From positions 32,001-96,000 of the forward strand of contig JANRKO010000028.1 of the NCBI GenBank assembly GCA_033763455.1: 64,000 bases of DNA. The letters are read 5' to 3'. This DNA is from Polyangiaceae bacterium. Its GTDB lineage: Bacteria > Myxococcota_A > Polyangia > Polyangiales > Polyangiaceae. This document shows, piece by piece, positions 12,249-61,355 of this stretch. Below the pieces are notes generated by a model. That model was not told the origin of the DNA and did no database searches. It saw only the letters and a list, made by a program, of their open reading frames with translations. Each line of letters opens with the position of its first letter. Position 1 is the first letter of the stretch. Both the position numbers and the translations under genes were made by a program.

Positions 12249-15200
12249 ATGTCGATGAAACGTGGCCTAGTCTCCGGGTTGTGTGCGATCTCATTGGCCG
12301 CCATTTTGGTTGCAGCGTGTAGTTCTGGTGGCGGAGCAGGTGAGGCCACCGGACCGTTGGACGCGAACGGTGCAGGTGGAAGCGGCGCGAGCGAGCCGAG
12401 CAATCCGAATGGCAGCGGGCTTGTGCCGGGGTTTGACTTTGGCAATGGCACCCAAGGTGGGCAAGGTGGCGTTGGCAATGGCAATGGCAATGGTGGCGCC
12501 GCAGGCGTGACGAGTATTTGTGGAGATTCCGTGATCGAAACGGATGAAGCTTGCGACGACGGCAATGCCCGTCCCGGAGACGGCTGCTCATCGGTGTGCA
12601 CGGTGGAGCCTTTCTTTAATTGCCCAGGAGCTGGTCAGGCGTGCGTATCAACAATTGTCTGCGGCAACGGCACGCTCGAAGGAAGTGAAGGCTGTGACGA
12701 CGGCCAGAGCCCACCCATGAGCGGAGACGGCTGCGCGAATTCATGCCAAGTGGAATTCGGCTTTGCGTGCGGTACTCCGGGGCAACCGTGCGTTGCGGTG
12801 GACACCGCAGTGTGCGGTGACGGGCTCATCAATATCGGAGAAACCTGCGATGATGCGCAGAATCCTCCCGTGAACGGTGACGGCTGTTCTAGCACCTGCA
12901 CTATCGAACCAGGCTATTCCTGCCCCACCCCCGGAGCGGCGTGTTCGGTGGTGGCTTTTTGCGGCAACGGCGCCACGTCTAGCGGTGAAGAGTGCGACGA
13001 TTCGAACACTTCGCCGGGTGATGGTTGCGATGGCACCTGCCACAAGGAGTCATTCTTTGACTGCCCCGCGCAAGGCGGAGCTTGTTCCTCGCAGATTGTG
13101 TGCGGTGACTTGCGCGTTGTCGGGGACGAAGAGTGCGACGACGGGATGGTGGGCAATGTTGCCGTGGGCGCTGACGGTTGTTCGGCGCTGTGCAAAATTG
13201 AGGCGAATTTCAGCTGCCCGGCGGATCTCGGAGTAGGCGGCCCCTGCACGGCGATTCCAGCGGACGCTTGTGGGGACGGAAAACTTTCGTTTGGTGAATT
13301 CTGCGATGACGGGAACCTGAACCCTGCTGACGGTTGCACCGAAAAGTGCGAGGTTACGCCCGGCTACAATTGCCCCACGGCCAACGCCGCGTGTTCACTG
13401 CTTGAATATTGTGGGGACGGAAAAGTTAGCCCTGCGCTAGGTGAACAATGCGACGACGGGCAGGCCATGCCAAGCAATAGTGACGGTTGCTCCAGCACCT
13501 GCCAGGCAGAAGCAGGATTTATTTGCGCCGTTGCCGGCCAGGCGTGTGTCGCTGAGGTTTGCGGTGATGGAATTCGCACCGCGGGCGAAGAGTGCGACGA
13601 TCACAACTCCTCTAATAGCGATGGTTGCAGCTCTGCTTGCGATCTGGAAGCAGGCTTCACCTGCCCTTTGCCGAATGCGAGCTGCTTGCCCCGCTGTGGA
13701 GATGGTCAGCTTAAAGGCTACGAAACGTGCGAGGATGGCAACACCACAAGTGGCGATGGTTGCAGCGCAGCGTGCTTGGTTGAGCCGGGGTATTTCTGCC
13801 CAACGTTGAACGCTAGCTGCACCATGGCCACCTGCGGCAATGGAGTGAAGGAGGGTGATGAGCCCTGCGACGACGGAAATCAGGTAAGCGGGGATGGCTG
13901 CACCCCGGCGTGCATTCCAGAGCCCACTTTCACGAACGGTGTAGCGAATACCGTCTGTGGCGATGGCGCCAAAGTCAGCAGTGAAGCGTGCGATGACGGC
14001 AACCTTGTGAGCGGGGACGGATGTAGCTCAACGTGCACGCTAGAGGCGGGATTCAGCTGCGTTCTGGTCAAGGACGATCCAGCGTCGGTGACACTTCCGA
14101 TCACCCTTCGGGATTTCTTGGACTACCAAACAGTGGATGGGCACCCTGATTTCGAACAATTCAATGGCACGGACAAGCAAATTCCAGGGGAGGTTTGCAC
14201 CACTGCCAATGCAAATACGTGCGCACAACTGAATGCGCAGGGAGTGCCGGTGCTGAACAGCAGCGAAGCTGATCCGACGATCACTAACGCGGCCAGCTAC
14301 GCCAAGTGGTACACAGACGTGGCTTCAGGGGCAGGCAAGAACGTCAAGATCGTCGACACGATTGCGCTCACCAGGCTCAGCGCTGGCACGTACGAGTACA
14401 ACAACAGCAGCTTCTTCCCCTTGGATGGCAAGGCACTCGGCAATCAAGGCCGAGCGCACAACTTCCACTTCACCTCGGTGGTGCGCCATTACTTTCAGTA
14501 CCAGGGCGGCGAGAAGCTCACATTCGCGGGCGACGACGACGTCTGGGTGTTCGTGAATGGCCGCCTTGCGCTCGATTTGGGCGGAGTGCACGGGGTGCAG
14601 AGCGGTAACTTCACGCTAGGCGACGAGAACGCGAACAATACGTACAGTGTTACCGAAATGGCGGACACCACGGACGACCGCTTCGCTATTACCAAAGGTG
14701 CACTCTATCAGATTACCCTGTTTCACGCGGAGCGCCACACTACCCAGTCGAACTTCAGGTTAACTCTAGCGAACTTCATTCTTGGGCGCTCCGTCTGTAC
14801 ACCCCAATGTGGCGATGGCATCATCGTGCGCGGCGAGGTTTGCGACGATGGCGCCAACAACACCAACAATACCTACGGCGTTTGCGATACCACCTGCTCT
14901 GCAAAACAATTTTGCGGCGACGGACAGGTGAACGGCAGCGAGCAGTGCGATAACGGCCTCAACCTCACTACCTATAGCTTGACACCGAATGCGTGTGCCC
15001 CAGGCTGTGTGTATGCGCCCTATTGCGGCGATGGGCAGCTCGCTTTGGGCGTCGAGAAGTGTGACGACGGAATGAGCAACGCTAACAACGTCTACGGCGT
15101 TTGCAATACTACGTGCCAGGCGAAGCAATTCTGTGGCGACGGCATCGTTACGGGCAGTGAGTCTTGCGATCAGGGGCAATTGAATGGCACCTCGCTGAGC

Positions 15201-16070
15201 ACGTGCCAGAATGATTGCAAGCCGAAGTGTGGCAACGGGGTTCTCGACGCGGGTGAACAGTGCGACGATGGCACTCTGAACAACACCGGTGGATACGGCA
15301 AGTGTAAGTCGACGTGCGTTCTAGATACCCGCTGCGGCGACGGCATTCCGCAAAATGCAAGCGGCGAACAGTGCGACGATGGCAAAAACGACGGCACCTA
15401 TGGCACCTGCGCTCCGCTGTGTGTATTGGGTCCCCGCTGCGGTGACGGCACCATCCAGCCGACCGCAGGGGAGACATGCGATTTAGGTGTTGCGAACAAC
15501 ACCCAAGCGTATGGCCCGCAACTGTGCACCACGCAGTGCAAAGCGGCTCCATTCTGCGGTGACAAGCAGGTGAATGGGGACCACGGCGAAGGCTGTGACG
15601 ATGGCGTGAACAGTGGCCTCCCTGGCTCTTGCAAAACAGACTGCAGTGGTTGGGTGCAACTCGCCGGCTGCGGCGATGGTGTGAAGGCTGCGAACGAAGC
15701 GTGTGATGCAGGGGCTGCCAACGGCACGGCCCAGAGCATGTGCGATGGGCGTTGTCGCATCAAGTGTGGCAACGGAGTTGTCGACACCGGCGAAGAGTGC
15801 GACGACGGCAAGAACACTGGCGCGTATGGAACCTGCAAGAGTGACTGCAAATTGGCTCCCTATTGCGGCGACAACCACGCCGATACTCCGCCCGAACAGT
15901 GCGACCTGGGCGACATGAACCAAGCTAGCCCATATGGCCCCAACAAGTGCACACTTGCCTGCAAAGCAGCTCCATTTTGCGGCGACGGGCGCATTCAATC
16001 GCCCACCGAGCAGTGCGACAACATGGTTGGCTGCGACAATGCCACCTGCACGTGGAAGGTCGTCAAGTAG
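12249..16070 (+). CDS. Fibro-slime (PA14-like) lipoprotein with DUF4215/Myxococcus Cys-rich repeats
   Basis: Lipobox LVAAC; about 23 CG[DN]x..E.CDDG repeats (11 before and 12 after) around the core HNFHFT...GDDDVWVFVNGRLALDLGGVH...FHAERH. Confidence 0.93.
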   Translation: MSMKRGLVSGLCAISLAAILVAACSSGGGAGEATGPLDANGAGGSGASEPSNPNGSGLVPGFDFGNGTQGGQGGVGNGNGNGGAAGVTSICGDSVIETDEACDDGNARPGDGCSSVCTVEPFFNCPGAGQACVSTIVCGNGTLEGSEGCDDGQSPPMSGDGCANSCQVEFGFACGTPGQPCVAVDTAVCGDGLINIGETCDDAQNPPVNGDGCSSTCTIEPGYSCPTPGAACSVVAFCGNGATSSGEECDDSNTSPGDGCDGTCHKESFFDCPAQGGACSSQIVCGDLRVVGDEECDDGMVGNVAVGADGCSALCKIEANFSCPADLGVGGPCTAIPADACGDGKLSFGEFCDDGNLNPADGCTEKCEVTPGYNCPTANAACSLLEYCGDGKVSPALGEQCDDGQAMPSNSDGCSSTCQAEAGFICAVAGQACVAEVCGDGIRTAGEECDDHNSSNSDGCSSACDLEAGFTCPLPNASCLPRCGDGQLKGYETCEDGNTTSGDGCSAACLVEPGYFCPTLNASCTMATCGNGVKEGDEPCDDGNQVSGDGCTPACIPEPTFTNGVANTVCGDGAKVSSEACDDGNLVSGDGCSSTCTLEAGFSCVLVKDDPASVTLPITLRDFLDYQTVDGHPDFEQFNGTDKQIPGEVCTTANANTCAQLNAQGVPVLNSSEADPTITNAASYAKWYTDVASGAGKNVKIVDTIALTRLSAGTYEYNNSSFFPLDGKALGNQGRAHNFHFTSVVRHYFQYQGGEKLTFAGDDDVWVFVNGRLALDLGGVHGVQSGNFTLGDENANNTYSVTEMADTTDDRFAITKGALYQITLFHAERHTTQSNFRLTLANFILGRSVCTPQCGDGIIVRGEVCDDGANNTNNTYGVCDTTCSAKQFCGDGQVNGSEQCDNGLNLTTYSLTPNACAPGCVYAPYCGDGQLALGVEKCDDGMSNANNVYGVCNTTCQAKQFCGDGIVTGSESCDQGQLNGTSLSTCQNDCKPKCGNGVLDAGEQCDDGTLNNTGGYGKCKSTCVLDTRCGDGIPQNASGEQCDDGKNDGTYGTCAPLCVLGPRCGDGTIQPTAGETCDLGVANNTQAYGPQLCTTQCKAAPFCGDKQVNGDHGEGCDDGVNSGLPGSCKTDCSGWVQLAGCGDGVKAANEACDAGAANGTAQSMCDGRCRIKCGNGVVDTGEECDDGKNTGAYGTCKSDCKLAPYCGDNHADTPPEQCDLGDMNQASPYGPNKCTLACKAAPFCGDGRIQSPTEQCDNMVGCDNATCTWKVVK

Positions 16071-36408: not shown

Positions 36409-38193
36409 TTAAGGTTTGCATTTTCCTTTGCCCTTGCTGCTAACACACTCGCCTTTGCATGCCGAAAGGCCCGCGTTGCATTGGATACCGCATTGGCTAT
36501 TGCTACATGTAGCTTTGCCTCCAACTACCCCTGGGCAGGCCTTACCGCATTGTCCGCAGTTGGCAACGTCGCTCTTCACGTCCACACACTGTTGTCCGCA
36601 GCGAACCAATGCTTGCTTGCACTGGAATGAACAAACCCCGCTATTACAGCTAGGTGCGGCGTTGCTCGGGGCACCGCAGATCTTGCCGCAGGAGCCGCAG
36701 TTAGAGGTATCGGATGCAAGCTCGACGCAAGCTCCGCTGCACTCAGTTTTCGAGCCACAGGCCATACCGCACACCCCGGACTCGCATACTTGACCCATGG
36801 CACATGCCGTTGAGCAGCCGCCACAGTGCGCAGGATCCGCGTTTGTATTGACGCACTGGCCGCCGCAAAGGCTGAAGCCGGCGTTACAAGTGATACCGCA
36901 GACACCAGCCGCGCACGTCGCCTGGCCATTGGCGGCAGCCGGACAGGAATTGCCGCAAACGCCGCAATTTTTGGCATCCACGTCGCTGCGAACACATTGG
37001 CCGCTGCACGAGGTATAGCCCGCATCGCAAGCAATCCCACACATCCCATTAGCGCAGCTGGGCACGCCATGGGCCGCACCGGGACACATCACGTCGCAAC
37101 TGCCGCAGTGAGCCGGGTCGCTCGCTAGATCAGAACAAGATCCATTGCAGTTTTCGGCGGTGCCTGAGCAACTCACCGTGCAGTTTCCAGCATTGCAGAC
37201 CTCCCCCGACGCACATGCATGTCCACAGGCGCCACAGTTTGAAGGATCACGGGCTGTTTGTACGCACTCCCCGCTGCACTCCGCGTAACCCGCAGAACAG
37301 ACAATCGCACACACACCTTTTTCACAACGGCTTTGACCATTGGCTGGGGCGTTGCACGCCGCGTCGCAGGCGCCACAATTGGCAGCGTCCGTGAGGGTAT
37401 CCACACAGGTGTTACCGCATTTGGTCCACCCGGCGTTGCAGCTGAAGTCGCAGTTCGAATTCGTGCACAAGGGTGTGCCTTGCGCCGGCGTTGGGCAACG
37501 CATGCCGCACGTGCCGCAGTGATTCACGCTTGAGGCCACGTCCACACAGGCCCCTGAACAAGCCGAAAGGCCTCCCGCGCAGCTCTCTGCACAGACGCCG
37601 TTCGAGCACACCTCACCGGGAATGCACGCCGTGTTGCAGCTTCCGCAGCGACCGGGATCGGTGCTTACGTCAGTGCAATCGCCAGCACACGCTTGGAAGG
37701 GCGCGCGACATAACGCCTGGCACTTCCCGTCCACGCAGCTCGCGGTTCCCCCGGCTTGCTCGGGGCAGACGGCGCCGCAGGCTCCGCAATTTTGCGGATC
37801 GTGATTAGTGTCCACGCACTGGGATCCGCAGGCAACGTAGGGCTTAAGGCAGGCAAAATTGCAATCATTGTTGAGGCAAATGGGCGCCGCGTTTGCAGGG
37901 GCGCTACAAGTTGCGCCGCAACCACCACAGCTTTTGGCATCGCTTGCAAGCAAGCGGCATTCGTTTCCGCAGAGAGTCATCCCCTCTTGGCACCCGATGG
38001 GGAGCTCAGATAACGGTGCTCCAGGGGTAGCGCGGATGCAGCGGTTGGTCACCGTGTTGCAGACGTAGCCGTCCACACAACGTTGGGCGGCATCGCAGGC
38101 CCTACCTTCCAAGCTTTCTGACATGCCGGAATCGCAAGCCCCTGCGAAGTACGCAAACAGGATCCACACAAGGCGAAACACCCTTGGTGGCAC
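36409..38193 (-). CDS. Cys-rich repeat lipoprotein (Stig1/MXAN_6577-like)
   Basis: AGAC lipobox; 11 repeats of C.G.CVD...D..[NH]CG.C...C. Confidence 0.88.
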   Translation of the reverse strand: MPPRVFRLVWILFAYFAGACDSGMSESLEGRACDAAQRCVDGYVCNTVTNRCIRATPGAPLSELPIGCQEGMTLCGNECRLLASDAKSCGGCGATCSAPANAAPICLNNDCNFACLKPYVACGSQCVDTNHDPQNCGACGAVCPEQAGGTASCVDGKCQALCRAPFQACAGDCTDVSTDPGRCGSCNTACIPGEVCSNGVCAESCAGGLSACSGACVDVASSVNHCGTCGMRCPTPAQGTPLCTNSNCDFSCNAGWTKCGNTCVDTLTDAANCGACDAACNAPANGQSRCEKGVCAIVCSAGYAECSGECVQTARDPSNCGACGHACASGEVCNAGNCTVSCSGTAENCNGSCSDLASDPAHCGSCDVMCPGAAHGVPSCANGMCGIACDAGYTSCSGQCVRSDVDAKNCGVCGNSCPAAANGQATCAAGVCGITCNAGFSLCGGQCVNTNADPAHCGGCSTACAMGQVCESGVCGMACGSKTECSGACVELASDTSNCGSCGKICGAPSNAAPSCNSGVCSFQCKQALVRCGQQCVDVKSDVANCGQCGKACPGVVGGKATCSNSQCGIQCNAGLSACKGECVSSKGKGKCKP

Positions 38194-41229: not shown

Positions 41230-41598
41230 ATGAGTGATTACCACGAGCCTTGGGAAAAGCTTTCGAGTGAATGCCGAGACCTCCACCGCGCTTTGGTGAG
41301 TTTGAAGGAGGAGATTGAGGCGGTGGATTGGTATGAGCAGCGTGCGTGTTTAGCCGCAGATCAAAGTCTTGCGCGCATTCTGCGCCATAATCGAGACGAG
41401 GAAATCGAACACGCCTGCATGACACTCGAATGGCTGCGCAGGACTGTGCCGGCGTGGGATGCGCAGCTCAAACGCTATCTCTTTACCGCTTCCGAGATTG
41501 TCAAAGAAGAGCCCAAAGCCGAGACATCTCCATTCAAAGGGTTAGCAGACGACGTGCGACCGCCTGCAGAAGCCCCGCACCTTCAGGTGCGCGGCTGA
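41230..41598 (+). CDS. Encapsulin-associated ferritin-like protein (EncFtn/Flp type)
   Basis: YHEP..L, HRALVSLKEEIEAVDWYEQR, HNRDEEIEHACMTLEWLRR, YLFT. Confidence 0.92.
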   Translation: MSDYHEPWEKLSSECRDLHRALVSLKEEIEAVDWYEQRACLAADQSLARILRHNRDEEIEHACMTLEWLRRTVPAWDAQLKRYLFTASEIVKEEPKAETSPFKGLADDVRPPAEAPHLQVRG

Positions 41599-52911: not shown

Positions 52912-53585
52912 CCTCAATCGCGAGTGATGCGGCAGCGTCTGCGCCGCCCGGGCAGAGTTTTTGGCGCGTCTATTGGCTCGCATTTGTGCGCCCCGCGCGA
53001 GCCATGAATGCCTTAGTCCAATCCCGCGGTGCAGTACGATTCGGCGCCTGCAGTGTGGCCATCACGGGTGTCACGTATTCACTCGTTTACTTCTTCCTGT
53101 CGCAGAACGGAGGCAGGCCCACCGTCTTCGAGCCTTGGCTCGCTATTCCCGCCGAGGATTACTACCGCTACAATTTGCTATTCAACCTCCCGAGCGTGCT
53201 CCTGGCCTGGGTCGCAGCGACAGGCTTCACTCACCTGGCCGCTCAGGCCTTGGGCGGAAAAGGGACGTTCGAGACGACCTTGGGCACACTCGGCTTGGGC
53301 ATCGGAGTGGCCTCCTGGGGCACCGGACTTCACGATCTGCTCACGAGCTGCATGGGGTACCAGGGGCTGCTCGACCAACGCGCCTACGAAGATGCCATGA
53401 GCGCGCCCGGGACGGCGGCCCATCGCCTGATTTGGACGCTCATGCTGCTCTATTCGAGCGCGTTCCTGCTGCTCTTCACGCGAGGCGTCGGGGTCGCGCA
53501 TGGCCTCCGCCTCGGTCGCGCCTTCGCTTGTGGAGCGCTTGGCTTCGCCGTGTACCAGGGCATATTCGTGCTCTTCAACCGCTGA
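52902..53585 (+). CDS. Yip1-like multi-pass membrane protein
   Basis: RP.RA N-terminus, about 5 TM helices, LGGKGTFE motif. Confidence 0.7.
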   Translation: MYMTSIASDAAASAPPGQSFWRVYWLAFVRPARAMNALVQSRGAVRFGACSVAITGVTYSLVYFFLSQNGGRPTVFEPWLAIPAEDYYRYNLLFNLPSVLLAWVAATGFTHLAAQALGGKGTFETTLGTLGLGIGVASWGTGLHDLLTSCMGYQGLLDQRAYEDAMSAPGTAAHRLIWTLMLLYSSAFLLLFTRGVGVAHGLRLGRAFACGALGFAVYQGIFVLFNR

Positions 53586-53843
53586 CAATCGAACGCGCGC
53601 ATCCGCACGCTGCCTCGCTTCTACACCACCGATGTGACGTTTCTCAGCTGACCGCCGCGCCGATCCAGCACACGCCACGTATTCCGATTTTTCGGATTTG
53701 GTGGCGCATCAAATGCGCGAGACGTGAACCCGTCGCGCAAGTCGTTCGTGCCGAGCGGCGACAGGTTGGCGGCGAGATCTGCAGAAACCGTTTTTCGAAT
53801 AGCCGCTTGCCTCGCCGGGCAGAGCGCTGCTAAGCGTCTTCCT

Positions 53844-54296
53844 ATGAAGTCGATAACCCAAACGACGCGACGCGCCTTGGCGGTGTTGCTACTGTTGCCA
53901 CTAAGCGGCTGCTATAGGGCGACGTTTTTCGAGAACCCTACTGCTGTTCGCGGCAATGAACACGAGCGCTGGACAGATTTCTTTATCTTCGGTTTGGTTG
54001 GCACCCAAGATTTCTCCATCAAGGAGTTTTGCCCGAGCGGCGAGGTGGCGCAGGTTCGCACCGGGGCGAACTTTGGAACTGGCATCGTTGGGTTTTTGAC
54101 GATTGGGATCTACACGCCACGAAAACTCTATGTAACGTGTGCCGCAACGGGCAAGGCGGCGCGGCGTGAACTGGAGATTGACGCTACTTCCTCAGGTGAG
54201 CCTGTAGCGGCAAAGATTCGCACTGGGAATTTAGCCGTACCGGTTAACATTCAACGGGTCAAGTCGGCTACGTGGCGACTTCAGGAGCGGAGCTGA
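53844..54296 (+). CDS. Bor/Iss-family lipoprotein
   Basis: LSGCY lipobox, FFIFGLV, CPSG, LTIGIYTPR...TC. Confidence 0.8.
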   Translation: MKSITQTTRRALAVLLLLPLSGCYRATFFENPTAVRGNEHERWTDFFIFGLVGTQDFSIKEFCPSGEVAQVRTGANFGTGIVGFLTIGIYTPRKLYVTCAATGKAARRELEIDATSSGEPVAAKIRTGNLAVPVNIQRVKSATWRLQERS

Positions 54297-54299
54297 GCC

Positions 54300-54734
54300 A
54301 TGTACAAGAATCGCAACTCCCGAACGCTGCTTGGCCTGTTTCTCACGTGCCTCCCCCTCTGCCTAAGTGGGTGTTACACGACCACCATTCACTCTGGGAA
54401 ACCTGCCGCGGCGCCGAGCCTCGAATACGATCAGAAGTGGCATCACGGCCTGGTGTGGGGGATCGCCGAACTCAGCGGCCCTTACGATCTGTCAAAAATC
54501 TGTCCACTCGGGTGGGCGAAAATTAAGACCGAAACCTCATTTCTGAATGGTTTCGTCGAGGCTGTGACCAGTGGTGTCTATGCGCCCCAGACGATCACCG
54601 TCATGTGCAACGCCTCTGAGGGTCCCGCCGCGCCATCCACTTCTGCTAAGCCCGCTGCGCCTCCCACCGATACGCCTGTTCCCCCTTCAACGGAGCCCGC
54701 TGCCCCGGTCGAGCCAAGCGCTAGCCCCGAGTGA
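54300..54734 (+). CDS. Bor/Iss-family lipoprotein with Pro/Ala-rich tail
   Basis: LSGCY, LVWGI, ICPLG, ETSFLNG, GVYAPQTITVMC. Confidence 0.8.
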   Translation: MYKNRNSRTLLGLFLTCLPLCLSGCYTTTIHSGKPAAAPSLEYDQKWHHGLVWGIAELSGPYDLSKICPLGWAKIKTETSFLNGFVEAVTSGVYAPQTITVMCNASEGPAAPSTSAKPAAPPTDTPVPPSTEPAAPVEPSASPE

Positions 54735-54867
54735 AGATCCTGGATTTATGATCGTATTCCTAGCGAGCGCGATCCTGATGCGGAGCCGGCGACCTGATCG
54801 GTTTGCCAGGTGCAGTTGCCGTTGAGCCTAAGCCAGTATCCCAGACTTGCGTGCAACCGGTTTCGGT

Positions 54868-54948
54868 TCGGCGTTTGCAGGGAAACGCCACCAGGTCCGC
54901 GTGGTCGCAGGAACGGCAGGTAAGCTGCAAATATCCATGCTCCGGGAT
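54868..54948 (-). mobile_element. IS91/ISCR-family transposase zinc-binding-domain remnant
   Basis: IPEHGYLQLTCRSCDHADLVAFPCKRR resembles the IS91 motif HGF.R..C..C....LVAFSCK.R; the CPSC that should follow is lost. Confidence 0.65.
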
Positions 54949-55172
54949 AGCGCTAATCATGCCCCGCCCGGCCGCTTGAAGCGGGGGCGATTTAAGGAAA
55001 GTCACCAACCTGTCGCAAAGCTCATGGCTAGCGAGGCGCTTCGCATGCCAAGTACCGCCCGGATGGTCGAAACCCCCTTGGATGGTGCGGGATTTTGTGG
55101 TTATGCTGCGCCGCTCCCTATGGGAGTAGCTCATTGACTGCAAGCGGACGTTCGGAGAACGAAGGAGAGATC

Positions 55173-56087
55173 ATGGCAAACTTTGGAACTCTGATTAAGA
55201 CAACGCGCGGGCGCCGCGTGGCTGCTGGCATTGCGGGCGCCGCAACACTTGCGAGCGCGGGTGCCTACGCCGCGGTTAGCCTCAACGCGAGCAGCGGTGA
55301 GATCCAAGGCTGCTACGACCGACAGGGCCGGCTGCGCGTACTCACGGGCCCGAACGATGCCTGTGAACGCAATGAGCAAGCTATCAGCTGGAACAAGCAA
55401 GGCCCCGAGGGAGCCCAGGGCCTTCCTGGGATACAGGGGCCCGCAGGTCCGGTGGGACCGGCGGGAGCGGATGGAGCACCTGGTCGGGATGGACGCGATG
55501 GCCTTCAGGGCGCCATCGGCCCAATGGGGGCAATCGGGCCTGTTGGTCCTCAGGGGCCTGCAGGGCCTCCGGGTTCAAGTGGTGGAGGAGGCGGTCAGCC
55601 AGCCCCGGCGGCCCACGAGGCCGATGTGTTCTTGAAGATCGGTGACATTAAGGGCGAATCGACGGACACCAAGCACAAGGACGAAATCGAGATCGAAAGC
55701 TTCAGCTGGGGCCTTAACAACGCGGGTTCGTTAAGCTCCGGCGGGGGAGCGGGCTCTGGCAAAGTGAGCTTTAATGATATCCAGCTTACCAAGCGCGTCG
55801 ATCTCTCAAGTGCCGCTTTGGCTCTCAACGGCGCGACAGGCAAGCATCTGCCTGAGGCCACCATCACGATCCTAAGGCCTAGCCAGAAGACGGGCGAAAA
55901 GGTCGAATATCTGAAGATCAAGCTGACGGACGTCTTGGTGACTTCCGTGAGTCAGGCGATCGATACGAGCGCCACCGCCGCCGAGAGCATCTCGCTCAAT
56001 TTCTCCAAGATCGACTTCCAATACACGTCGGAAGTAGCACCGCCCAATGGGTTCGGGTGGGACATCAAACAGAACACGAAGCTTTGA
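55173..56087 (+). CDS. hcp: Signal peptide - two-Cys cap - collagen repeat - Hcp (T6SS tube) fusion protein
   Basis: AAGGAG RBS; signal peptide ending AGAYA; Gly-X-Y x19-20; [63 protein letters not shown]. Confidence 0.92.
55401..55580 (+). repeat. Collagen-like Gly-X-Y repeat (19-20 uninterrupted triplets)
   Basis: [60 protein letters not shown]. Confidence 0.95.
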
Positions 56088-57658
56088 GCCAGAGTGGGGC
56101 TGATTTCAAGGCGGCATTGACCGCCTACGATCAAGTTGCCTACCCAGGCCACGCCTACCCACAGACGCACCCCACACGCCTGGGCGCGATGGCTCAGCTA
56201 CTCGGGTTAACGCCAGCGCCCGTTGAGCGTTGCCGAGTTTTGGAGCTCGCCTGTGGGGACGGCGCCAATCTTATCCCCATGGCCGTGGCGCTGCCGGGCG
56301 CTACCTTCGTCGGCGTGGACGTCGCAGCGCGTGCGATCGCCGCGGGGCAAGAGATTGTGGCCGAGCTCGGCCTCCGGAACATCGAGCTTCGCGCGGGCGA
56401 CGCTTCCGCCCTGGGGCGCGATTTAGGGGAGTTCGACTATGTGATCGCCCACGGGGTCTATTCGTGGGTGCCAGAAGCCGTGCGCGACGGGCTGCTCGCA
56501 ACGATCAAGGCACACCTGGCGCCGGGTGGGATCGGTTATGTGAGCTTCTCCGCGTATCCTGGCGCCTATTTTCGCGAACTCGTGCGCGAGCTCATGCTCT
56601 TTCACACGGGCGAGGGCGCGCCACCCACCGAGCGCCTTCAGCACGGAATCGATTTCTTGCGCTTTGTTCGCGAAGTGCACGGTCCCGGAACGGCTTACGC
56701 GGCCGCCCTGGATCAAGAGCTTGTGCGCGTTTCCAAAGCGGACCCAGGCTACGTCTTTCACGATGATTTCTCTGAAACGAATGCCCCGATCTATTTTTCG
56801 GCTTTTGCTGAACACTTGGCCACACACGATCTTGCCTACCTGTGTGACGCGACCTTCGATTACTTCTTCGACCCACGCCTTTCGTCGGCTGTACGCGAGC
56901 AGATCAGCAGCTACGCCGGGGGAAACATCATTGCCGAACAGCAGTACCTCGACTTCATCCAGGGCACACCCTTCCGCCAAACGCTGGCGTGCCACGCGAG
57001 CGCACCGATTGATAGAAAGTTCGACGCGACGCGATTGTTCCCGCTCTTGGCTTCGGCTTGGCTTGCTCCTACACAGCCGGACCCCGACATCCTGGGCCCA
57101 ACCCGTGTTTGCTTTCGCAGCCAAGATCTTCGAGAAATCGAAACGGAGGAGCCGCTCGCCAAAGCTTTGCTCTTGGAGCTATCCCAAGCTTGGCCTGAAG
57201 CGCGTAGCGTTCAGTGCATTTTTGACAGCGCCCTCAGGCGCATCGGGGCGCCTCCACCCGATCCATCGGGGGCGCCTGGGTACGCTCCGCACGCGCTCCG
57301 GGTTCTGGAGCGCACCGTTCTTATGGGCGCCGCTACCCGCTTGATCTCTGTGTGGCACGGCAGCTTTGTGGGTATCGGAGTACCCGGCGATCGCCCGCTC
57401 GCAAGTCCGCTCGCTCGCCTTCAAGCGAGTCGTGGAGAACTAGTAACGAGCCTTCGCCACACGACAGTACGCCTTCAAGATGCCCCTGCACGTGGCCTGC
57501 TTGAGCTGATGGATGGCACCCGCACCCGCCAGGACTTGTTGGTAGCGCTCCGCGACCGATTGGCCGAGTCCGACCCAACCTCTGCCCATGACCTAAACCT
57601 GGAAGCGCTCAACCGCGTGCTCAACGGGTTGGCGGAGCGTGGTTTCGTTTTGGGTTAG
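56084..57658 (+). CDS. Class I SAM methyltransferase with MethyTransf_Reg-like and C-terminal winged-helix domains (PKMT-like)
   Basis: YD..AYP...[48 protein letters not shown]....FRQTL, LMDGTRT; TTG 56084 overlaps the hcp TGA. Confidence 0.88.
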
Positions 57659-57709
57659 GCGATCTCCAGCTGAGGCCCCTGGCTCGCAGCACCGCAGACT
57701 ACATCGCGC

Positions 57710-58546
57710 TCAAAGTGGCGCGGCCGTATAGCCTTGCACCACCTTTAGGTTGTCGAAGCGAATGGCAGATGGCGTCTGCGGTTCCCACGTGAGGTTCGGA
57801 AAAATGGCGGGTAAATACTGCGATGCACAAAGATCGTCGAACAACCCCTGGGTCAGCCCTGGGTACGCTGGCAGTGCACCTTGACACGTCGTCCGCTTCA
57901 CTTCGTTGCCACCGTAGAAGGTGCTGAAAAATAGGCTGTTGACCCATGCATCTTGGCTGTCCGGAACAATCACCGGGCACGGGCCGCTGCACTCGTCGCG
58001 CAACACCACGTTGTGAGAAACCAACAGTCGTTTGGCAGAGCCGTCGGCGGCTTGCACCGCCAAACTTACTTCACCATTGCCCGAGATGGGCACCGGGGCG
58101 CCGATACCATCCAGAACCAGCTTGCCGTCCGCATCTTTCTTGTAAACGACACTGTCATTGTCGTTTACCTGAACCGAGATTCGTAGCGTGTACCATTTGC
58201 CTGTTTGGAAACGAAATTTGTCGTCGGCAGGGATCTTGCCCGGCTCTTCGTAGGGCGCGTCTCCGTCGGTGGCATCCATCATCTGCATCACGCCGCAGCC
58301 CCCCGAAGGACGCGTTTGATCGTAGGAATACAGTTGTAAGCGGCCATTGTTGCGCCACATCACGCGCACACTCCAGTTCTTCACATTGCGCTTCTTGTTT
58401 CCATCGTCCGTGCACCCACTGTCGAAAGCCTTGGCCGCCAAACCCGGTAATTTCCCACCCTTGGCGAAATCGAAACCGGGCTCGAAATACAAATCGTAGG
58501 TCAACGTGTACGCCTTCGCAGCGATAGGGGCGTTAGAGGCAGCCAC
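57710..58546 (-). pseudogene. Polysaccharide lyase family 14-like gene, apparently 5'-truncated
   Basis: YDLYFEPGFDFAKGGKLPGL, WSVRVMWR, FSTFYGG; no signal peptide; in-frame TAG at 58610-58612 upstream. Confidence 0.65.
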
Positions 58547-59570: not shown

Positions 59571-60716
59571 GTGCTCCGCTCACTCGAACTCAGCAACTTT
59601 CGAGCCTTCCAGAGTTTCTCTCTTGAAGGCCTTGGACAAATAAATTTGTGCGTCGGCACTAATAACTGCGGCAAGACCTCGATCCTCGAAGCCGTAAGCA
59701 TCTTGGCGTCGCGCGGTCGTCCGGAATCGCTTTGGTCCGCGCTTGCCCGTCGCGGTGAGCAGTGGTTCGAAGATGATACTAGGGGTCCGGGCCGCCTAGA
59801 AGTCGATATTTGCCATCTGTTCTATGGTCATGAGCTTTTACCAAATGCGCAGTTCTCAATTACAGGAGTAAACGACACGAGGACGCAGAAAATCACCGCC
59901 ACGGCCGTTGAGCGCGACCCCGCTCAGGAGAACACTGAAGGCCCTGATCGCATATCAGCTCGTCAGGGTACCCTGTTTGATCCAGGCGACACTGAAAATT
60001 CGCTCGGGGGGAGGATGTCGTTGGAGCTACGATGGGAGGGTTTCAACAGCGAGGTAACTCAGCAGTTTCTCGTATCGCGACGCGGAGGCCTGGTTAGCGA
60101 CGTTCTCGAACGATCGACCAGAAAGCGCGACGACGACGCCACTCCGGTTAGATCGATTACGACCGAAGCACTGACACGCGACGAAGTCGTCGCCATGTTC
60201 GAAGCCATTGTGCTAACCCCGGAGGAACAAGTCGTCATTGATGCGCTCAAGACGATCGAACCTGCTATCGAACGCATTGCTCCGATTGGCTCTTCGCGAC
60301 GCCGATATTTCCCCGTTGATCGGGGTGGAATTGTCGTAAAGTTAGCGAACAGCAACCAGCGCATCCCCATAGGCAGCATGGGAGACGGGATCTGGCGGAT
60401 GCTTGGAATCGCTTTGTCGCTAGCGCGAGCCAGGGGCGGGATCCTCCTCGTCGACGAGATTGACACGGGATTTCACCACTCGGTCATGGCCTCCATGTGG
60501 CGGATGGTTCTTGAAACCGCCTTAAGGCTCGACGTCCAGGTATTTGCGACCACCCACAGCCGCGACTGCTACGAAAGCCTTGCTTCCATTTCACGCGCGG
60601 ATGCATCGGAGAGTCGTGTGTCTATCCAGCGGATCGAGCGCGGAAACCCCAAGGCCGTAGCCTTCTCCGAAAGTCAGATAGTCATCGCTGCAGAACGCGC
60701 CATTGAGGTGAGATAA
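59571..60716 (+). CDS. ABC-type ATPase (AAA_15/AAA_21)
   Basis: NFRAF, GTNNCGKTSILEA, SMGDG signature, LLVDEIDTGFH, QVFATTHS. Confidence 0.92.
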   Translation: MLRSLELSNFRAFQSFSLEGLGQINLCVGTNNCGKTSILEAVSILASRGRPESLWSALARRGEQWFEDDTRGPGRLEVDICHLFYGHELLPNAQFSITGVNDTRTQKITATAVERDPAQENTEGPDRISARQGTLFDPGDTENSLGGRMSLELRWEGFNSEVTQQFLVSRRGGLVSDVLERSTRKRDDDATPVRSITTEALTRDEVVAMFEAIVLTPEEQVVIDALKTIEPAIERIAPIGSSRRRYFPVDRGGIVVKLANSNQRIPIGSMGDGIWRMLGIALSLARARGGILLVDEIDTGFHHSVMASMWRMVLETALRLDVQVFATTHSRDCYESLASISRADASESRVSIQRIERGNPKAVAFSESQIVIAAERAIEVR

Positions 60717-60719
60717 CCT

Positions 60720-61355
60720 ATGCGCGTCATGTTGGTTGAGGGATCAGATGACCTGCGTGCAATCCCCCACCTCTTGGAGACAGCCGGCGTGGCGTGGGGC
60801 CGAAAAGATAAGCCAATTGTCAAAATTATCCAATGCGAAGGGGTGGCAACAATGTTGGCACCTGACTTCATCACGACACATCTAAAGGCATCAGGTCTGG
60901 TGGCCCTGGGGGTTATCGTGGATGCGGACAATAGCGCGCAAGACCGTTGGAGAACGATCCGCGAACGAGTGCTCGACCTCTACTCCGATGCTCCATCTGA
61001 CATGCCCGCCACGGGAGTAATTCTGCGCGCGACGGGCAAACCCACGTTTGGCGCATGGATAATGCCAGACAATGTGAACCGCGGGATGCTTGAGACGTTC
61101 CTGCTTTTTCTCAGGCCCAAGGACAATCCGTCGCTGCTTGCGTACGCACAGGAGGTTATCCAAGAGGCCAAGAACCGGGGCGCACCGTTCCTGGAACAGC
61201 ACCAGGACAAGGCCGAGATTCACTCTTGGCTGGCTTGGCAGGATCCCCCTGGGAGGCAGTTGCACAACGCCATCATGGAGAGAATGTTGGGGAACAAACA
61301 CGAGTGTATTGAATCATTTGTTGCATGGTTTCAGGCGCTTTACTCCCAAAAATAG
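60720..61355 (+). CDS. DUF3226-like TOPRIM-fold protein
   Basis: MLVEGSDD, GVIVDAD, WIMPDN..GMLETFL, DKAEIHSWLAWQDPPG. Confidence 0.82.
   Translation: MRVMLVEGSDDLRAIPHLLETAGVAWGRKDKPIVKIIQCEGVATMLAPDFITTHLKASGLVALGVIVDADNSAQDRWRTIRERVLDLYSDAPSDMPATGVILRATGKPTFGAWIMPDNVNRGMLETFLLFLRPKDNPSLLAYAQEVIQEAKNRGAPFLEQHQDKAEIHSWLAWQDPPGRQLHNAIMERMLGNKHECIESFVAWFQALYSQK

What the first reader, a model, noticed from the sequence alone, without database searches (positions are those of the whole stretch)
55173..56087. Orphan Hcp (T6SS tube) fused to an export signal and a collagen triple helix: a candidate non-T6SS surface filament or lattice
Seen: one 304-aa ORF with four parts. These are a basic-then-hydrophobic leader ending AGAYA/A, a ~35-aa two-Cys cap, 19-20 perfect Gly-X-Y triplets plus a Gly/Pro linker, and a complete-looking Hcp domain at the C-terminus. 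No tssB/C, vgrG, clpV or baseplate gene is recognisable in the 64 kb. Known: canonical Hcp has no signal peptide, assembles in the cytoplasm as stacked hexamers inside the TssBC sheath, and its described fusions are mostly C-terminal toxins. Inference: this Hcp is exported by Sec (GRR hints weakly at Tat) and has been repurposed. An N-terminal collagen stalk would be hard to fit in a sheath. Trimeric collagen on hexameric rings could give two stalks per ring or cross-link rings into a mesh.
Basis: partly seen in the sequence, partly recalled or inferred. Interest (0 to 1): 0.92.

Follow-up and report, generated by a model that had tools for sequence, protein, structure and literature searches.

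The report
Exported collagen-stalked Hcp with methyltransferase partner
A myxobacterial gene joins an export leader, a small two-cysteine cap and a collagen stalk to a complete type VI secretion tube (Hcp) domain, and relatives show this is one member of a large, apparently undescribed set of Hcp proteins built to work outside the cell rather than inside a secretion machine.

Summary
ORF 55173-56087 (+) encodes 304 aa: a basic and hydrophobic leader, a 2-Cys cap, 20 unbroken Gly-X-Y triplets, a Gly/Pro linker and a full-length Hcp domain. No T6SS gene is found in the 64 kb.

It is not a one-off fusion or a misassembly. 92 stored relatives share the layout. The leader-cap-collagen stalk is a reusable module: of the 120 best cap matches, 60 carry Hcp and 60 carry other heads, which fall into 30 BLAST clusters. 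One modelled sibling head looks TNF-like.

Leader-bearing Hcp proteins are common among the closest Hcp relatives: 38 of 85 single-domain hits. They occur in Solirubrobacteraceae and Nitrososphaera records.

The next gene overlaps the hcp stop codon. It encodes an OM-PKMT-like protein-lysine methyltransferase, a family whose known substrates are surface fibre proteins.

Best reading: an exported, collagen-trimerised protein that displays Hcp outside the cytoplasm and is probably lysine-methylated. I found no description in ten literature searches.

The parts
55162..55167 (+). Shine-Dalgarno-like AAGGAG, 5 nt before the ATG
   Evidence: Read directly from the sequence.
55173..55274 (+). Leader, aa 1-34: basic n-region (K9, R12, R14, R15), Ala/Gly-rich hydrophobic core, AYA|A small-x-small site. 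Candidate Sec or Tat signal peptide.
   Evidence: 152 of 155 cap-bearing relatives have such a leader. It is 85-88% identical to P0002 and P0003, more than the Hcp head is. No SignalP or TatP run was possible.
55275..55400 (+). Cap, aa 35-76: small beta module with Cys47 and Cys64. Proposed disulfide-stabilised nucleation or bundling domain for the collagen stalk.
   Evidence: C47, R55, C64 and E68 are invariant in 40 of 40 sequences. pLDDT is 86-93, with three strands. The cap profile finds 1154 proteins at E<=1. No Pfam or PDB relative was found.
55401..55580 (+). Collagen triple-helix region, aa 77-136: 20 uninterrupted G-X-Y triplets (9 Pro in X, 3 Pro in Y, two GRD triplets). About 17 nm long if helical.
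55581..55619 (+). Gly/Pro-rich flexible linker, aa 137-149
   Evidence: pLDDT is below 50 for aa 134-146.
55620..56087 (+). Complete Hcp (TssD-fold) domain, aa 150-304, plus the stop codon
   Evidence: PF05638, 129 bits, full profile. 1Y12 at E 3.5e-32. Foldseek TM 0.86.
56057..57658 (+). OM-PKMT-like protein-lysine methyltransferase gene. Its start is either GTG 56057 or TTG 56084, and both overlap the hcp coding end (TTGA overlap with the stop codon for TTG 56084). Proposed modifier of the Hcp protein.
   Evidence: Pfam: SAM methyltransferase domains plus PF10119 (73.7 bits) plus PF21782 PKMT winged helix (55.6 bits). Alignments to 7 homologues begin at residues 18-24 of the GTG-started frame, so an ATG start at codon 44 is unlikely. 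The overlap was read.
53724..54734 (+). Two tandem Bor-family lipoprotein genes (53724-54296, 54300-54734), same strand, 438 bp upstream. Context only; not shown to belong.
   Evidence: PF06291, 52.5 and 62.2 bits. phrog_260.

Best explanation
The gene encodes an exported protein that shows an Hcp domain outside the cytoplasm on a short collagen stalk.

Proposed mechanism (each step is marked shown or inferred):
1. The leader takes the chain across the inner membrane and is cut at AYA|A (inferred).
2. The 2-Cys cap folds and oxidises, and it nucleates or bundles a 20-triplet collagen triple helix about 17 nm long (inferred).
3. Each stalk then carries three Hcp heads on 13-residue flexible linkers (inferred).
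4. The heads act as an oligomerising or binding module. Most likely they form Hcp-type rings from two trimers, with the stalks on one face, which would block tube stacking and any fit inside a sheath (inferred).
5. The translationally coupled OM-PKMT-like enzyme methylates lysines of the protein. 14 of its 16 lysines lie in the Hcp head (inferred from gene linkage and from the family's known substrates).

Shown here: the domain anatomy, the recurrence of the architecture, the modular use of the stalk, the lack of T6SS genes in the window, and the gene overlap with the methyltransferase.
For: - Anatomy.
- The same leader-cap-collagen-Hcp layout occurs in 92 stored relatives. The 40-sequence alignment has invariant C47, R55, C64 and E68.
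- The cap profile finds 1154 proteins at E<=1. Of the best 120, 60 have Hcp and 60 have other heads. The 56 other heads of at least 40 aa fall into 30 BLAST clusters.
- One sibling head, modelled at pLDDT 83-89, matches trimeric TNF-like jelly rolls (RANKL, 4-1BBL, BC2L-C N-domain, Pgp3, BxpB) at TM about 0.5.
- On a tree of the cap, the head type changes at least 14 times, with at least 4 changes forced by well-supported branches.
- 152 of 155 cap proteins have a basic and hydrophobic leader.
- In the exhaustive search with the Hcp head, 38 of 85 single-domain hits among the best 150 have a hydrophobic leader.
- Named sources include Solirubrobacteraceae, Nitrososphaera viennensis, a Pacearchaeota archaeon and Polyangiaceae. 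The nearest ESM Atlas clusters are mostly Actinomycetota, and an Hcp+PEP-CTERM cluster exists.
- No T6SS family was found in 44 and 31 ORF scans, and there is no second Hcp in the window.
- Solved hexamers exist in which a partner is fused to the N-terminus of Hcp1 (6ap1, 4kss, 7o42), so N-terminal fusions tolerate the ring.
- Multi-domain relatives favour divisors of six: 15 with 2 domains, 6 with 3 and 38 with 6, against 3 with 4, 2 with 5 and 1 with 7.
- The methyltransferase has the PKMT architecture. Its start overlaps the hcp stop. Known OM-PKMT substrates are the surface proteins OmpB and the trimeric fibre AtaA (search listing; abstract read).
Against: - No signal-peptide predictor was run. 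The hydrophobic core is weak (Kyte-Doolittle mean about 1.5), and the leader is unusually conserved (85-88% to P0002 and P0003). That could mean a retained anchor or a special targeting signal rather than a cleaved Sec peptide.
- No anchor or outer-membrane targeting signal is visible. In a diderm, the default fate after Sec export is the periplasm, not the surface.
- Trimerisation, ring formation and methylation were not tested (complex prediction unavailable).
- The methyltransferase has no leader, so it would have to act before export or on a Tat-type folded substrate.
- Full-length homologues of that methyltransferase sit next to or inside canonical T6SS clusters in 7 of 80 loci. This is a link to T6SS, not away from it.
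- Absence of T6SS genes nearby is weak evidence: 32 of 80 canonical hcp loci also lack them within 10 kb.
- Myxobacteria can carry T6SS (5urw, M. xanthus sheath), and the rest of this genome was not seen.
- The gene neighbourhoods of the fusion's own relatives could not be fetched.
Confidence: 0.6

Rival explanations
1. It is a specialised ('evolved') Hcp that is still loaded into a T6SS encoded elsewhere in the genome. The N-terminal region would be a cargo or adaptor, not an export signal.
For: - The Hcp domain is complete and 39-45% identical to canonical Hcp.
- The neighbouring methyltransferase family is embedded in T6SS clusters between tagJ and tssE in Planctomycetia loci.
- Orphan hcp genes are common: 32 of 80 control loci have no core gene within 10 kb.
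- Myxobacteria can have T6SS (5urw).
Against: - The described specialised Hcps carry C-terminal extensions. The survey read defined them that way.
- The same leader, cap and collagen are attached to non-Hcp heads in 60 of the 120 best cap hits.
- Two invariant cysteines suggest an oxidising compartment.
- Relatives occur in Actinomycetota and Archaea.
- A trimeric stalk of about 17 nm at the N-terminal face would block head-to-tail stacking (inference).
Confidence: 0.1
2. The leader is not cleaved. The protein is an inner-membrane-anchored periplasmic stalk (a signal anchor) that holds Hcp heads about 17-20 nm from the membrane, and is not a cell-surface or secreted fibre.
For: - The leader is more conserved than the Hcp head (85-88% against 60-82%).
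- Nitrososphaera relatives have a strongly hydrophobic N-terminal segment followed by a roughly 25-aa linker, which looks like an anchor.
- No lipobox, LPXTG or other surface-sorting signal was seen, and the collagen-adhesin NCBIfam scores are far below their cut-offs.
Against: - A small-x-small motif lies within 16 residues upstream of the cap in 87 of 87 relatives where the cap regex matched, although this is weak in Ala-rich leaders.
- The hydrophobic core is short and Ala/Gly-rich (mean about 1.5), which is poor for a stable transmembrane helix.
Confidence: 0.17
3. This is a gene-calling artefact. Translation starts internally at GTG codon 152 (a GAGG lies 5 nt upstream) and gives a plain leaderless Hcp, and the upstream part is not made.
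For: GTG at codon 152 is preceded by CACGAGGCCGAT. Canonical Hcps have M, V or I at the equivalent position.
Against: - The upstream 150 residues are conserved at protein level in dozens of relatives, including invariant Cys, Arg and Glu and the Gly register.
- Identity to P0002 is 78-92% across all four upstream parts.
- The codon is Thr in P0003.
- A strong SD precedes ATG 55173.
- An internal start would remove the first Hcp residues.
Confidence: 0.03
4. It is a remnant of a phage or tailocin fibre, a collagen-like tail fibre joined to a tube-fold domain.
For: PHROGs tail-fibre families match the collagen part, and phrog_27303 (unknown function) matches the Hcp part at E 8e-23. Bor-like genes lie upstream.
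Against: - No other phage structural, lysis or integration family was found among 12 neighbouring ORFs or among the 44 ORFs of the window.
- The collagen hits are compositional.
- Phage fibres do not carry signal peptides.
- GC3 is native.
Confidence: 0.02

Closest known systems
Canonical T6SS tube protein Hcp/TssD (e.g. P. aeruginosa Hcp1, PDB 1Y12)
   Same: Full-length Hcp domain and fold. It probably keeps the ability to form rings (inference).
   Different: It has a roughly 150-aa N-terminal leader, cap and collagen. No T6SS gene lies in the 64 kb. The architecture is shared with proteins from lineages without T6SS. Known specialised Hcps extend at the C-terminus.
Defence-collagen layout of C1q, collectins, adiponectin and Bacillus BclA (named from my own knowledge)
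   Same: The order is the same: signal peptide, short N-terminal Cys-containing region, collagen stalk, globular C-terminal head. A sibling protein on the same stalk has a modelled TNF/C1q-like jelly-roll head.
   Different: The head here is Hcp, natively a hexamer-former, not a trimeric jelly roll. The cap has no detectable relative in Pfam or the PDB. The stalk is short, at 20 triplets.
Streptococcal Scl1/Scl2 and Legionella Lcl collagen-like adhesins
   Same: A bacterial collagen triple-helix repeat with a presumed adjacent trimerisation domain and an export signal. There are weak NCBIfam matches over the collagen part.
   Different: Scores are 23-33 bits against cut-offs of 325-500. There is no LPXTG anchor, and the N- and C-terminal domains are unrelated.
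OM protein-lysine methyltransferases with their surface substrates (Rickettsia PKMT1/2 with OmpB; Acinetobacter Tol 5 KmtA with the trimeric fibre AtaA)
   Same: The neighbouring gene has the PKMT domain set. The proposed substrate is again an exported, probably trimeric fibre (abstracts).
   Different: The substrate here is not an autotransporter. The enzyme-substrate relation is inferred only from overlapping genes. Homologues also sit in T6SS clusters.
Engineered partner-Hcp1 'assistant hexamer' fusions (PDB 4KSR/4KSS GspE-Hcp1, 6AP1 Vps4-Hcp1, 7O42 TrwK-Hcp1)
   Same: A partner is joined to the N-terminus of Hcp through a flexible linker, and the entries hold 6 chains (4kss, 6ap1, 7o42).
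   Different: Those are laboratory constructs with hexameric partners. Here a natural, presumably trimeric stalk is attached, and the protein is exported.

Membership tests
T6SS tube protein Hcp/TssD (as a working tube subunit) | Complete Hcp domain and fold (PF05638 / TIGR03344) | tested here: met
   129.1 bits over profile positions 1-129 of 129. TIGR03344 scores 66.2 against a cut-off of 58.9. 1Y12 at E 3.5e-32. Foldseek TM 0.86.
T6SS tube protein Hcp/TssD (as a working tube subunit) | Cytoplasmic protein that starts directly with the Hcp domain, with no export leader | tested here: not met
   The Hcp domain starts at about aa 150, after a basic and hydrophobic leader, cap and collagen. In the 79 of 80 control loci where my motif found an Hcp ORF, a start codon lies 4-6 residues before the motif in 77 and 17-19 in 2 (L076, L077), and I saw no hydrophobic leader. 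The leader was judged by heuristics only, with no SignalP.
T6SS tube protein Hcp/TssD (as a working tube subunit) | Encoded with T6SS core genes (TssB/C, VgrG, ClpV, baseplate, membrane complex) | tested here: not met
   None in 44 ORFs (Pfam) or 31 ORFs (NCBIfam) of the 64 kb. In the control, 48 of 80 canonical hcp loci have at least one core family within 10 kb. The rest of the genome was not seen.
T6SS tube protein Hcp/TssD (as a working tube subunit) | Hexameric rings that stack inside a TssBC sheath, with T6SS-dependent release | not testable with these tools
This needs biochemistry and genetics.
Bacterial collagen-like proteins (PF01391) | Uninterrupted Gly-X-Y repeats long enough for a triple helix | tested here: met
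   20 triplets, aa 77-136. PF01391 scores 27.7 bits against a cut-off of 27.2. The Gly register is conserved in 40 relatives.
Bacterial collagen-like proteins (PF01391) | Adjacent non-collagen trimerisation domain | tested here: inconclusive
   The cap is a confident small beta module (pLDDT 86-93) and is conserved whatever the head. Trimerisation itself was not tested.
LPXTG- or otherwise anchored collagen adhesins (SclA/SclB/Lcl equivalogs) | Family-level score and a surface anchor | tested here: not met
   32.9, 32.2 and 22.8 bits against cut-offs of 500, 325 and 400. No LPXTG or lipobox is present in the sequence.
Cap-collagen stalk family (undescribed; defined here by profile A3) | Leader, then the G-x-I-x-G/A-C ... 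L-R-V ... C ... E-x-x-I-x-W-N cap, then collagen, then a variable head | tested here: met
   The window protein scores 71 bits against the cap profile. C47, R55, C64 and E68 are invariant. Caveat: the profile was built partly from this protein.
Tat (twin-arginine) signal peptides | S/T-R-R-x-F-L-K-like motif before a weakly hydrophobic core | tested here: inconclusive
   The leader reads TRGRRVAAG with a weak Ala/Gly core. RR is kept in the closest relatives (P0002-P0008), but only 21 of 87 family members fit RR-x-hydrophobic-hydrophobic, and some have KK or RK. No TatP was available.
OM protein-lysine methyltransferases (PKMT) - the neighbouring gene | SAM methyltransferase domain + PF10119 regulatory domain + PF21782 PKMT winged helix | tested here: met
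   PF13649 59.5 bits, PF10119 73.7 bits, PF21782 55.6 bits. Substrate and activity were not tested.

The most novel reading that the evidence does not exclude
Hcp, the tail-tube fold of the type VI secretion system, also has a widespread second life as an exported building block that works without a sheath. Leader-bearing forms occur in Actinomycetota, Nitrososphaera-type archaea, Myxococcota and Planctomycetota. They come as single domains, 2x, 3x and 6x tandem chains, PEP-CTERM forms, and collagen- or coiled-coil-stalked trimers. These stoichiometries divide six, which points to hexameric rings assembled outside the cytoplasm. The window's protein is the collagen-stalked version. Two trimers would build one ring, and a dedicated PKMT-type enzyme would methylate its lysines. 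More broadly, Hcp-methyltransferase pairing would be a general and overlooked feature of Hcp biology.
Probability: 0.3. Interest if true: 0.85.

Novelty: new variant of a known kind. Interest (0 to 1): 0.75.

Why it matters
Hcp is treated as a marker of type VI secretion, and databases name these proteins 'T6SS tube protein Hcp' (source names).

If a large share of Hcp-domain genes are in fact exported through the general secretion route, then genome and metagenome surveys that count hcp over-call T6SS. This would apply to lineages that cannot build a T6SS. [quoted passage not shown]

The family also offers three things:
- A natural case of a phage-tube fold reused as an extracellular module.
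- A new, small, Cys-stabilised cap that appears to go with short prokaryotic collagens carrying interchangeable heads, which could be useful for protein engineering.
- A third candidate substrate class for bacterial surface-protein lysine methylation.

Tried and rejected
A smaller alignment (A2) was accepted.
In the 79 where my motif found an Hcp ORF, I saw no leader. No neighbourhood of any leader-cap-collagen-Hcp relative was obtained, and the source genome was not retrieved. Whether the methyltransferase pairing and the lack of T6SS hold for the family therefore stays unchecked.
- Complex prediction (3 copies of aa 36-150) was not available. No oligomer test was made.
- promoter and terminator scans gave 1 and 5 sites, no more than in shuffles (means 1.1 and 5.0). 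This is not informative.
- Rfam found no match in 53000-58000.
- PHROGs gave no prophage context.
- the cap profile against the PDB and Pfam gave only chance-level hits (E 1.4 and 0.11).
- the FastTree tree of Hcp heads has 158 columns and many unsupported forks. Leader-bearing and leaderless forms intermix (11 changes). I labelled all locus-derived rows 'canonical' after reading their N-termini, and no AU test was run. I do not claim a number of origins.
- Ten literature searches found no description of signal-peptide Hcp, collagen-Hcp, tandem six-domain Hcp or Hcp-methyltransferase pairing. Subscription-only papers are not covered.
- bioRxiv and PMC supplements were not opened.
Full report
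**1. What is there**

The ORF at 55173-56087 (+) encodes 304 residues.
- An AAGGAG box lies 5 nt before the ATG. Relatives begin at the same MANF/MADL residues, so this start is preferred over the upstream TTG at 55095.
- Pfam finds a complete Hcp domain: PF05638, 129.1 bits, profile positions 1-129 of 129, aa 153-284. It also finds a collagen repeat just above its cut-off: PF01391, 27.7 against 27.2 bits, aa 77-135.
- NCBIfam gives TssD (TIGR03344, 66.2 against 58.9 bits). Its matches to the Lcl, SclB and SclA adhesins are far below cut-off.
- The collagen part is 20 uninterrupted G-X-Y triplets, with 9 Pro in X, 3 Pro in Y and two GRD triplets. It is the only such run in any of the six frames of the window.
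- The Hcp part aligns end to end with P. aeruginosa Hcp1 (1Y12 residues 5-163 of 165, E 3.5e-32).
- An AlphaFold2 model built on 40 relatives has pLDDT mostly 94-98 in the Hcp domain, dipping to about 70 over aa 181-200 and to 80 over aa 261-270. It has pLDDT 86-93 in a three-stranded cap (aa 41-75) and low confidence in the leader, collagen and linker, as expected for a single chain. Foldseek puts the model on 1Y12 at TM 0.86 and rmsd 2.3 A.
- GC3 equals that of the neighbours.

**2. Surroundings**
- Pfam on 44 ORFs and NCBIfam on 31 ORFs of the window found no TssA-M, VgrG, PAAR or ClpV. There is no second Hcp or cap.
- The window looks myxobacterial: TIGR02232 myxo_disulf_rpt at 477 bits, an MXAN_6577-like protein, many Ser/Thr kinases and a sigma-54 activator. 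The nearest named relative of the protein is from a Polyangiaceae MAG.
- There is no prophage context and no Rfam match.
- As a control for 'orphan', I clustered all ORFs of 80 canonical hcp loci and named the clusters with Pfam. 48 of 80 have at least one T6SS core family within 10 kb, and 32 do not. Absence of T6SS genes around this gene is therefore suggestive, not decisive, and the rest of the genome could not be read.

**3. Not a one-off and not a misassembly**
- A word-indexed search found 1009 relatives at E<=1e-3 among 8000 scored candidates.
- Across the stored proteins from both searches, 92 have a hydrophobic leader plus at least 4 G-X-Y triplets before the Hcp domain.
- The closest, P0002 (82% identity, 300 aa) and P0003 (63%, seen on 11 contigs from four sources), share all four parts.
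- In a 40-sequence alignment, C47, R55, C64, E68 and the glycine register are invariant.
- Named sources include Polyangiaceae, Solirubrobacteraceae and a Pacearchaeota archaeon, the last with a coiled-coil plus short collagen form.

**4. The stalk is a module**
- A profile of the cap alone (A3, 12 sequences) found 1154 proteins at E<=1 among 8000 scored. Of the best 120, 60 carry Hcp and 60 do not (checked with my own Hcp HMM).
- Of the 60 others, 8 have PF18998 and 1 has PF11617. The rest show collagen only or no Pfam family.
- Their 56 heads of at least 40 aa fall into 30 BLAST clusters.
- I modelled one sibling (P0196, a 13-sequence alignment, head pLDDT 83-89). Its head matches TNF-like trimeric jelly rolls: RANKL, 4-1BBL, the BC2L-C N-domain, the Pgp3 C-domain and B. 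anthracis BxpB. TM is about 0.5 and E about 1e-4, which is a moderate match.
- 152 of 155 cap-bearing proteins with at least 15 residues upstream have a basic and hydrophobic leader (93 of 94 Hcp-headed, 59 of 61 others).
- On a tree of the cap, the head type changes at least 14 times, at least 4 of them forced by well-supported branches. The tree has only 57 columns, so detail is unreliable.
- The cap has no relative in Pfam or the PDB.
- The layout of signal, short Cys region, collagen and globular head is that of C1q, collectins and BclA (my own knowledge). Here Hcp takes the place of the head.

**5. Exported Hcp is a broad class**
- An exhaustive phmmer search with the Hcp head (aa 148-304) against 1.84 billion representatives gave 9717 hits at E<=1e-3, 3739 at E<=1e-10 and 59 at E<=1e-30.
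- Among the best 150, 85 have one Hcp domain. Of these, 42 have no extension (12 aa or fewer), 38 have an extension of at least 18 aa with a hydrophobic segment, 3 have an extension without one, and 2 are intermediate.
- The rest have 2 domains (15 proteins), 3 (6), 4 (3), 5 (2), 6 (38) or 7 (1). Ranking by summed score favours multi-domain proteins, so these are not frequencies.
- Several six-domain chains begin with an LE-x-R-x-LL-A/S motif, which I recall as a planctomycete export-type N-terminus. Others have no leader.
- Nitrososphaera viennensis and another Nitrososphaera genome encode Hcp behind a strongly hydrophobic N-terminal segment and a roughly 25-aa linker.
- ESM Atlas places the window protein nearest to clusters of 133, 83 and 280 members whose known phyla are mostly Actinomycetota. 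It also shows an Hcp+PEP-CTERM cluster of 57 members.

**6. The partner gene**
- The next ORF (GTG 56057 or TTG 56084, to 57658) overlaps the end of hcp. With TTG 56084 the start and the TGA stop form TTGA.
- It has a SAM methyltransferase domain, PF10119 and the PKMT winged-helix domain PF21782.
- Alignments to its homologues start at residues 18-24 of the GTG frame, so a later ATG start is unlikely.
- PKMT-family enzymes are known to methylate many lysines of exported surface proteins: Rickettsia OmpB (abstract start in the listing) and the trimeric fibre AtaA of Acinetobacter Tol 5 (abstract read).
- The window protein has 16 lysines, 14 of them in the Hcp head.
- Full-length homologues of this enzyme (31-37% identity, E 1e-88 to 1e-105, plus two shorter matches) lie in 7 of the 80 canonical hcp loci. 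In two Planctomycetia loci (L010, L025) the gene sits in the order tssA-tssB-tssC-hcp-tagJ-x-MT-tssE-tssF. L072 shows the hcp-tagJ-x-MT part.
- Two other methyltransferase families also accompany hcp. A TPR-methyltransferase occurs in 37 loci, within 500 bp of hcp in 20. An MTS-type enzyme occurs in 9 loci.
- In all, 50 of 80 loci have one of the three families. 30 have one within 3 kb of hcp: 23 of the 32 loci without T6SS genes and 7 of the 48 with them.
- Hcp-methyltransferase pairing thus seems general. One search on it found nothing relevant.
- This cuts both ways. It gives the exported Hcp a plausible modifier, but it is also a thread back to T6SS.

**7. How it most likely works**

Shown:
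- The anatomy, its recurrence and the modular stalk.
- Leaders on nearly all family members.
- No T6SS genes nearby.
- The overlapping methyltransferase gene.

Inferred:
- The leader drives export. Sec is likely for the family. Tat is possible for this subgroup, given TRGRRVAAG and a weak Ala/Gly core, but only 21 of 87 members fit an RR-x-hydrophobic-hydrophobic pattern.
- The cap oxidises and nucleates or bundles a triple helix of about 17 nm.
- Three Hcp heads hang on 13-residue linkers.
- The heads bind something or assemble.
- Solved hexamers of partner-Hcp1 fusions, with the partner at the Hcp N-terminus (6ap1, 4kss, 7o42), show that the ring tolerates six N-terminal attachments. The bias of natural tandem forms towards 2, 3 and 6 domains fits ring formation.
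- If rings form, two trimers per ring with both stalks on one face is the simplest geometry. It would hinder head-to-tail tube stacking and exclude a sheath.
- Whether the product is periplasmic, surface-bound or released is open, because no anchor or outer-membrane signal is visible.
- An oddity: the leader is 85-88% identical to P0002 and P0003, more than the Hcp head (82% and 60%). This hints at a sequence-specific role such as an anchor or dedicated targeting.

**8. Rivals**
- A T6SS-loaded specialised Hcp.
- An uncleaved signal-anchor form that stays in the periplasm.
- An internal start at GTG codon 152.
- A phage-fibre remnant.

All four are weighed in the Rival explanations section. 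The first two are not excluded.

**9. Novelty and verdict**
- The parts are known kinds. The architecture, the cap module, the breadth of leader-bearing Hcp and the methyltransferase pairing are not described in anything I could find.
- That rests on ten full-text searches. Subscription journals are not covered and supplements were not opened.
- I rate it a new variant of a known kind, with high interest.

Noticed in passing
Proteins P0221-P0229, P0231, P0236, P0237 and others; not in the window: 38 of the best 150 relatives of the Hcp head are 900-3650 aa proteins with six tandem Hcp domains, that is, one possible covalent ring per chain. Some start with an LE-x-R-x-LL-A/S motif typical of planctomycete secreted proteins (recalled). 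Others start directly with the Hcp motif. Two- and three-domain forms also occur.
   Followed up: partly
Loci L004, L011, L019, L029-L031, L033, L039, L045, L046, L048-L050, L052, L062, L069, L071, L078 and others: A TPR + SAM-methyltransferase gene of about 450 aa lies within 500 bp of a leaderless hcp in 20 of 80 loci. Most of these loci have no T6SS core gene within 10 kb, and they include MAGs labelled Actinomycetes, Gaiellaceae and Acidobacteriota. This looks like an hcp-methyltransferase two-gene module of unknown function.
   Followed up: partly
Loci L010 12517-14118, L025 11600-14035, L072 12373-13884: Homologues of the window's PKMT-like methyltransferase sit inside planctomycete T6SS core clusters, between tagJ/impE plus a CxxCxxCC-domain gene and tssE. 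In L025 the CxxCxxCC domain is fused to the methyltransferase.
   Followed up: partly
window 55173-55274 (leader) compared with P0002, P0003 and P0005-P0008: The leader peptide is more conserved than the Hcp head: 85-88% against 60-82% to P0002 and P0003, and 58-64% against 52% to P0005-P0008. This is unusual for a signal peptide.
   Followed up: no
P0046, P0054, P0095 (Nitrososphaera records): Ammonia-oxidising archaea encode an Hcp domain behind a hydrophobic N-terminal segment and a short linker. These records are annotated as T6SS effectors, although archaea are not known to have T6SS.
   Followed up: no
ESM Atlas structure row 2: A cluster of 57 proteins of about 236 aa combines Hcp with a C-terminal PEP-CTERM sorting signal. 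This is another exported form, which one large survey filtered out.
   Followed up: no
window 59571-61355 (+): An AAA_15/AAA_21 ATPase (weak matches to PtuA, MAD3 and retron effector ATPases) is followed by a DUF3226 protein (208 bits). This is a possible two-gene anti-phage system.
   Followed up: no
window 12249-16070 (+) and 36409-38193 (-): A 1273-aa secreted-type protein has 10-11 myxobacterial Cys-rich repeats (DUF4215 / TIGR02232) plus a fibro-slime/PA14 domain. A 594-aa MXAN_6577-like Cys-rich protein lies next to a PEGA/TPR protein and a Ser/Thr kinase.
   Followed up: no
window 53724-54734 (+): Two tandem Bor-family lipoprotein genes lie directly upstream of the collagen-Hcp gene on the same strand. 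Whether they are functionally linked is unknown.
   Followed up: no
window 41230-41598 (+): An encapsulated-ferritin-like gene (EncFtn-like, 130 bits) has no encapsulin shell gene recognised next to it in the scans made.
   Followed up: no
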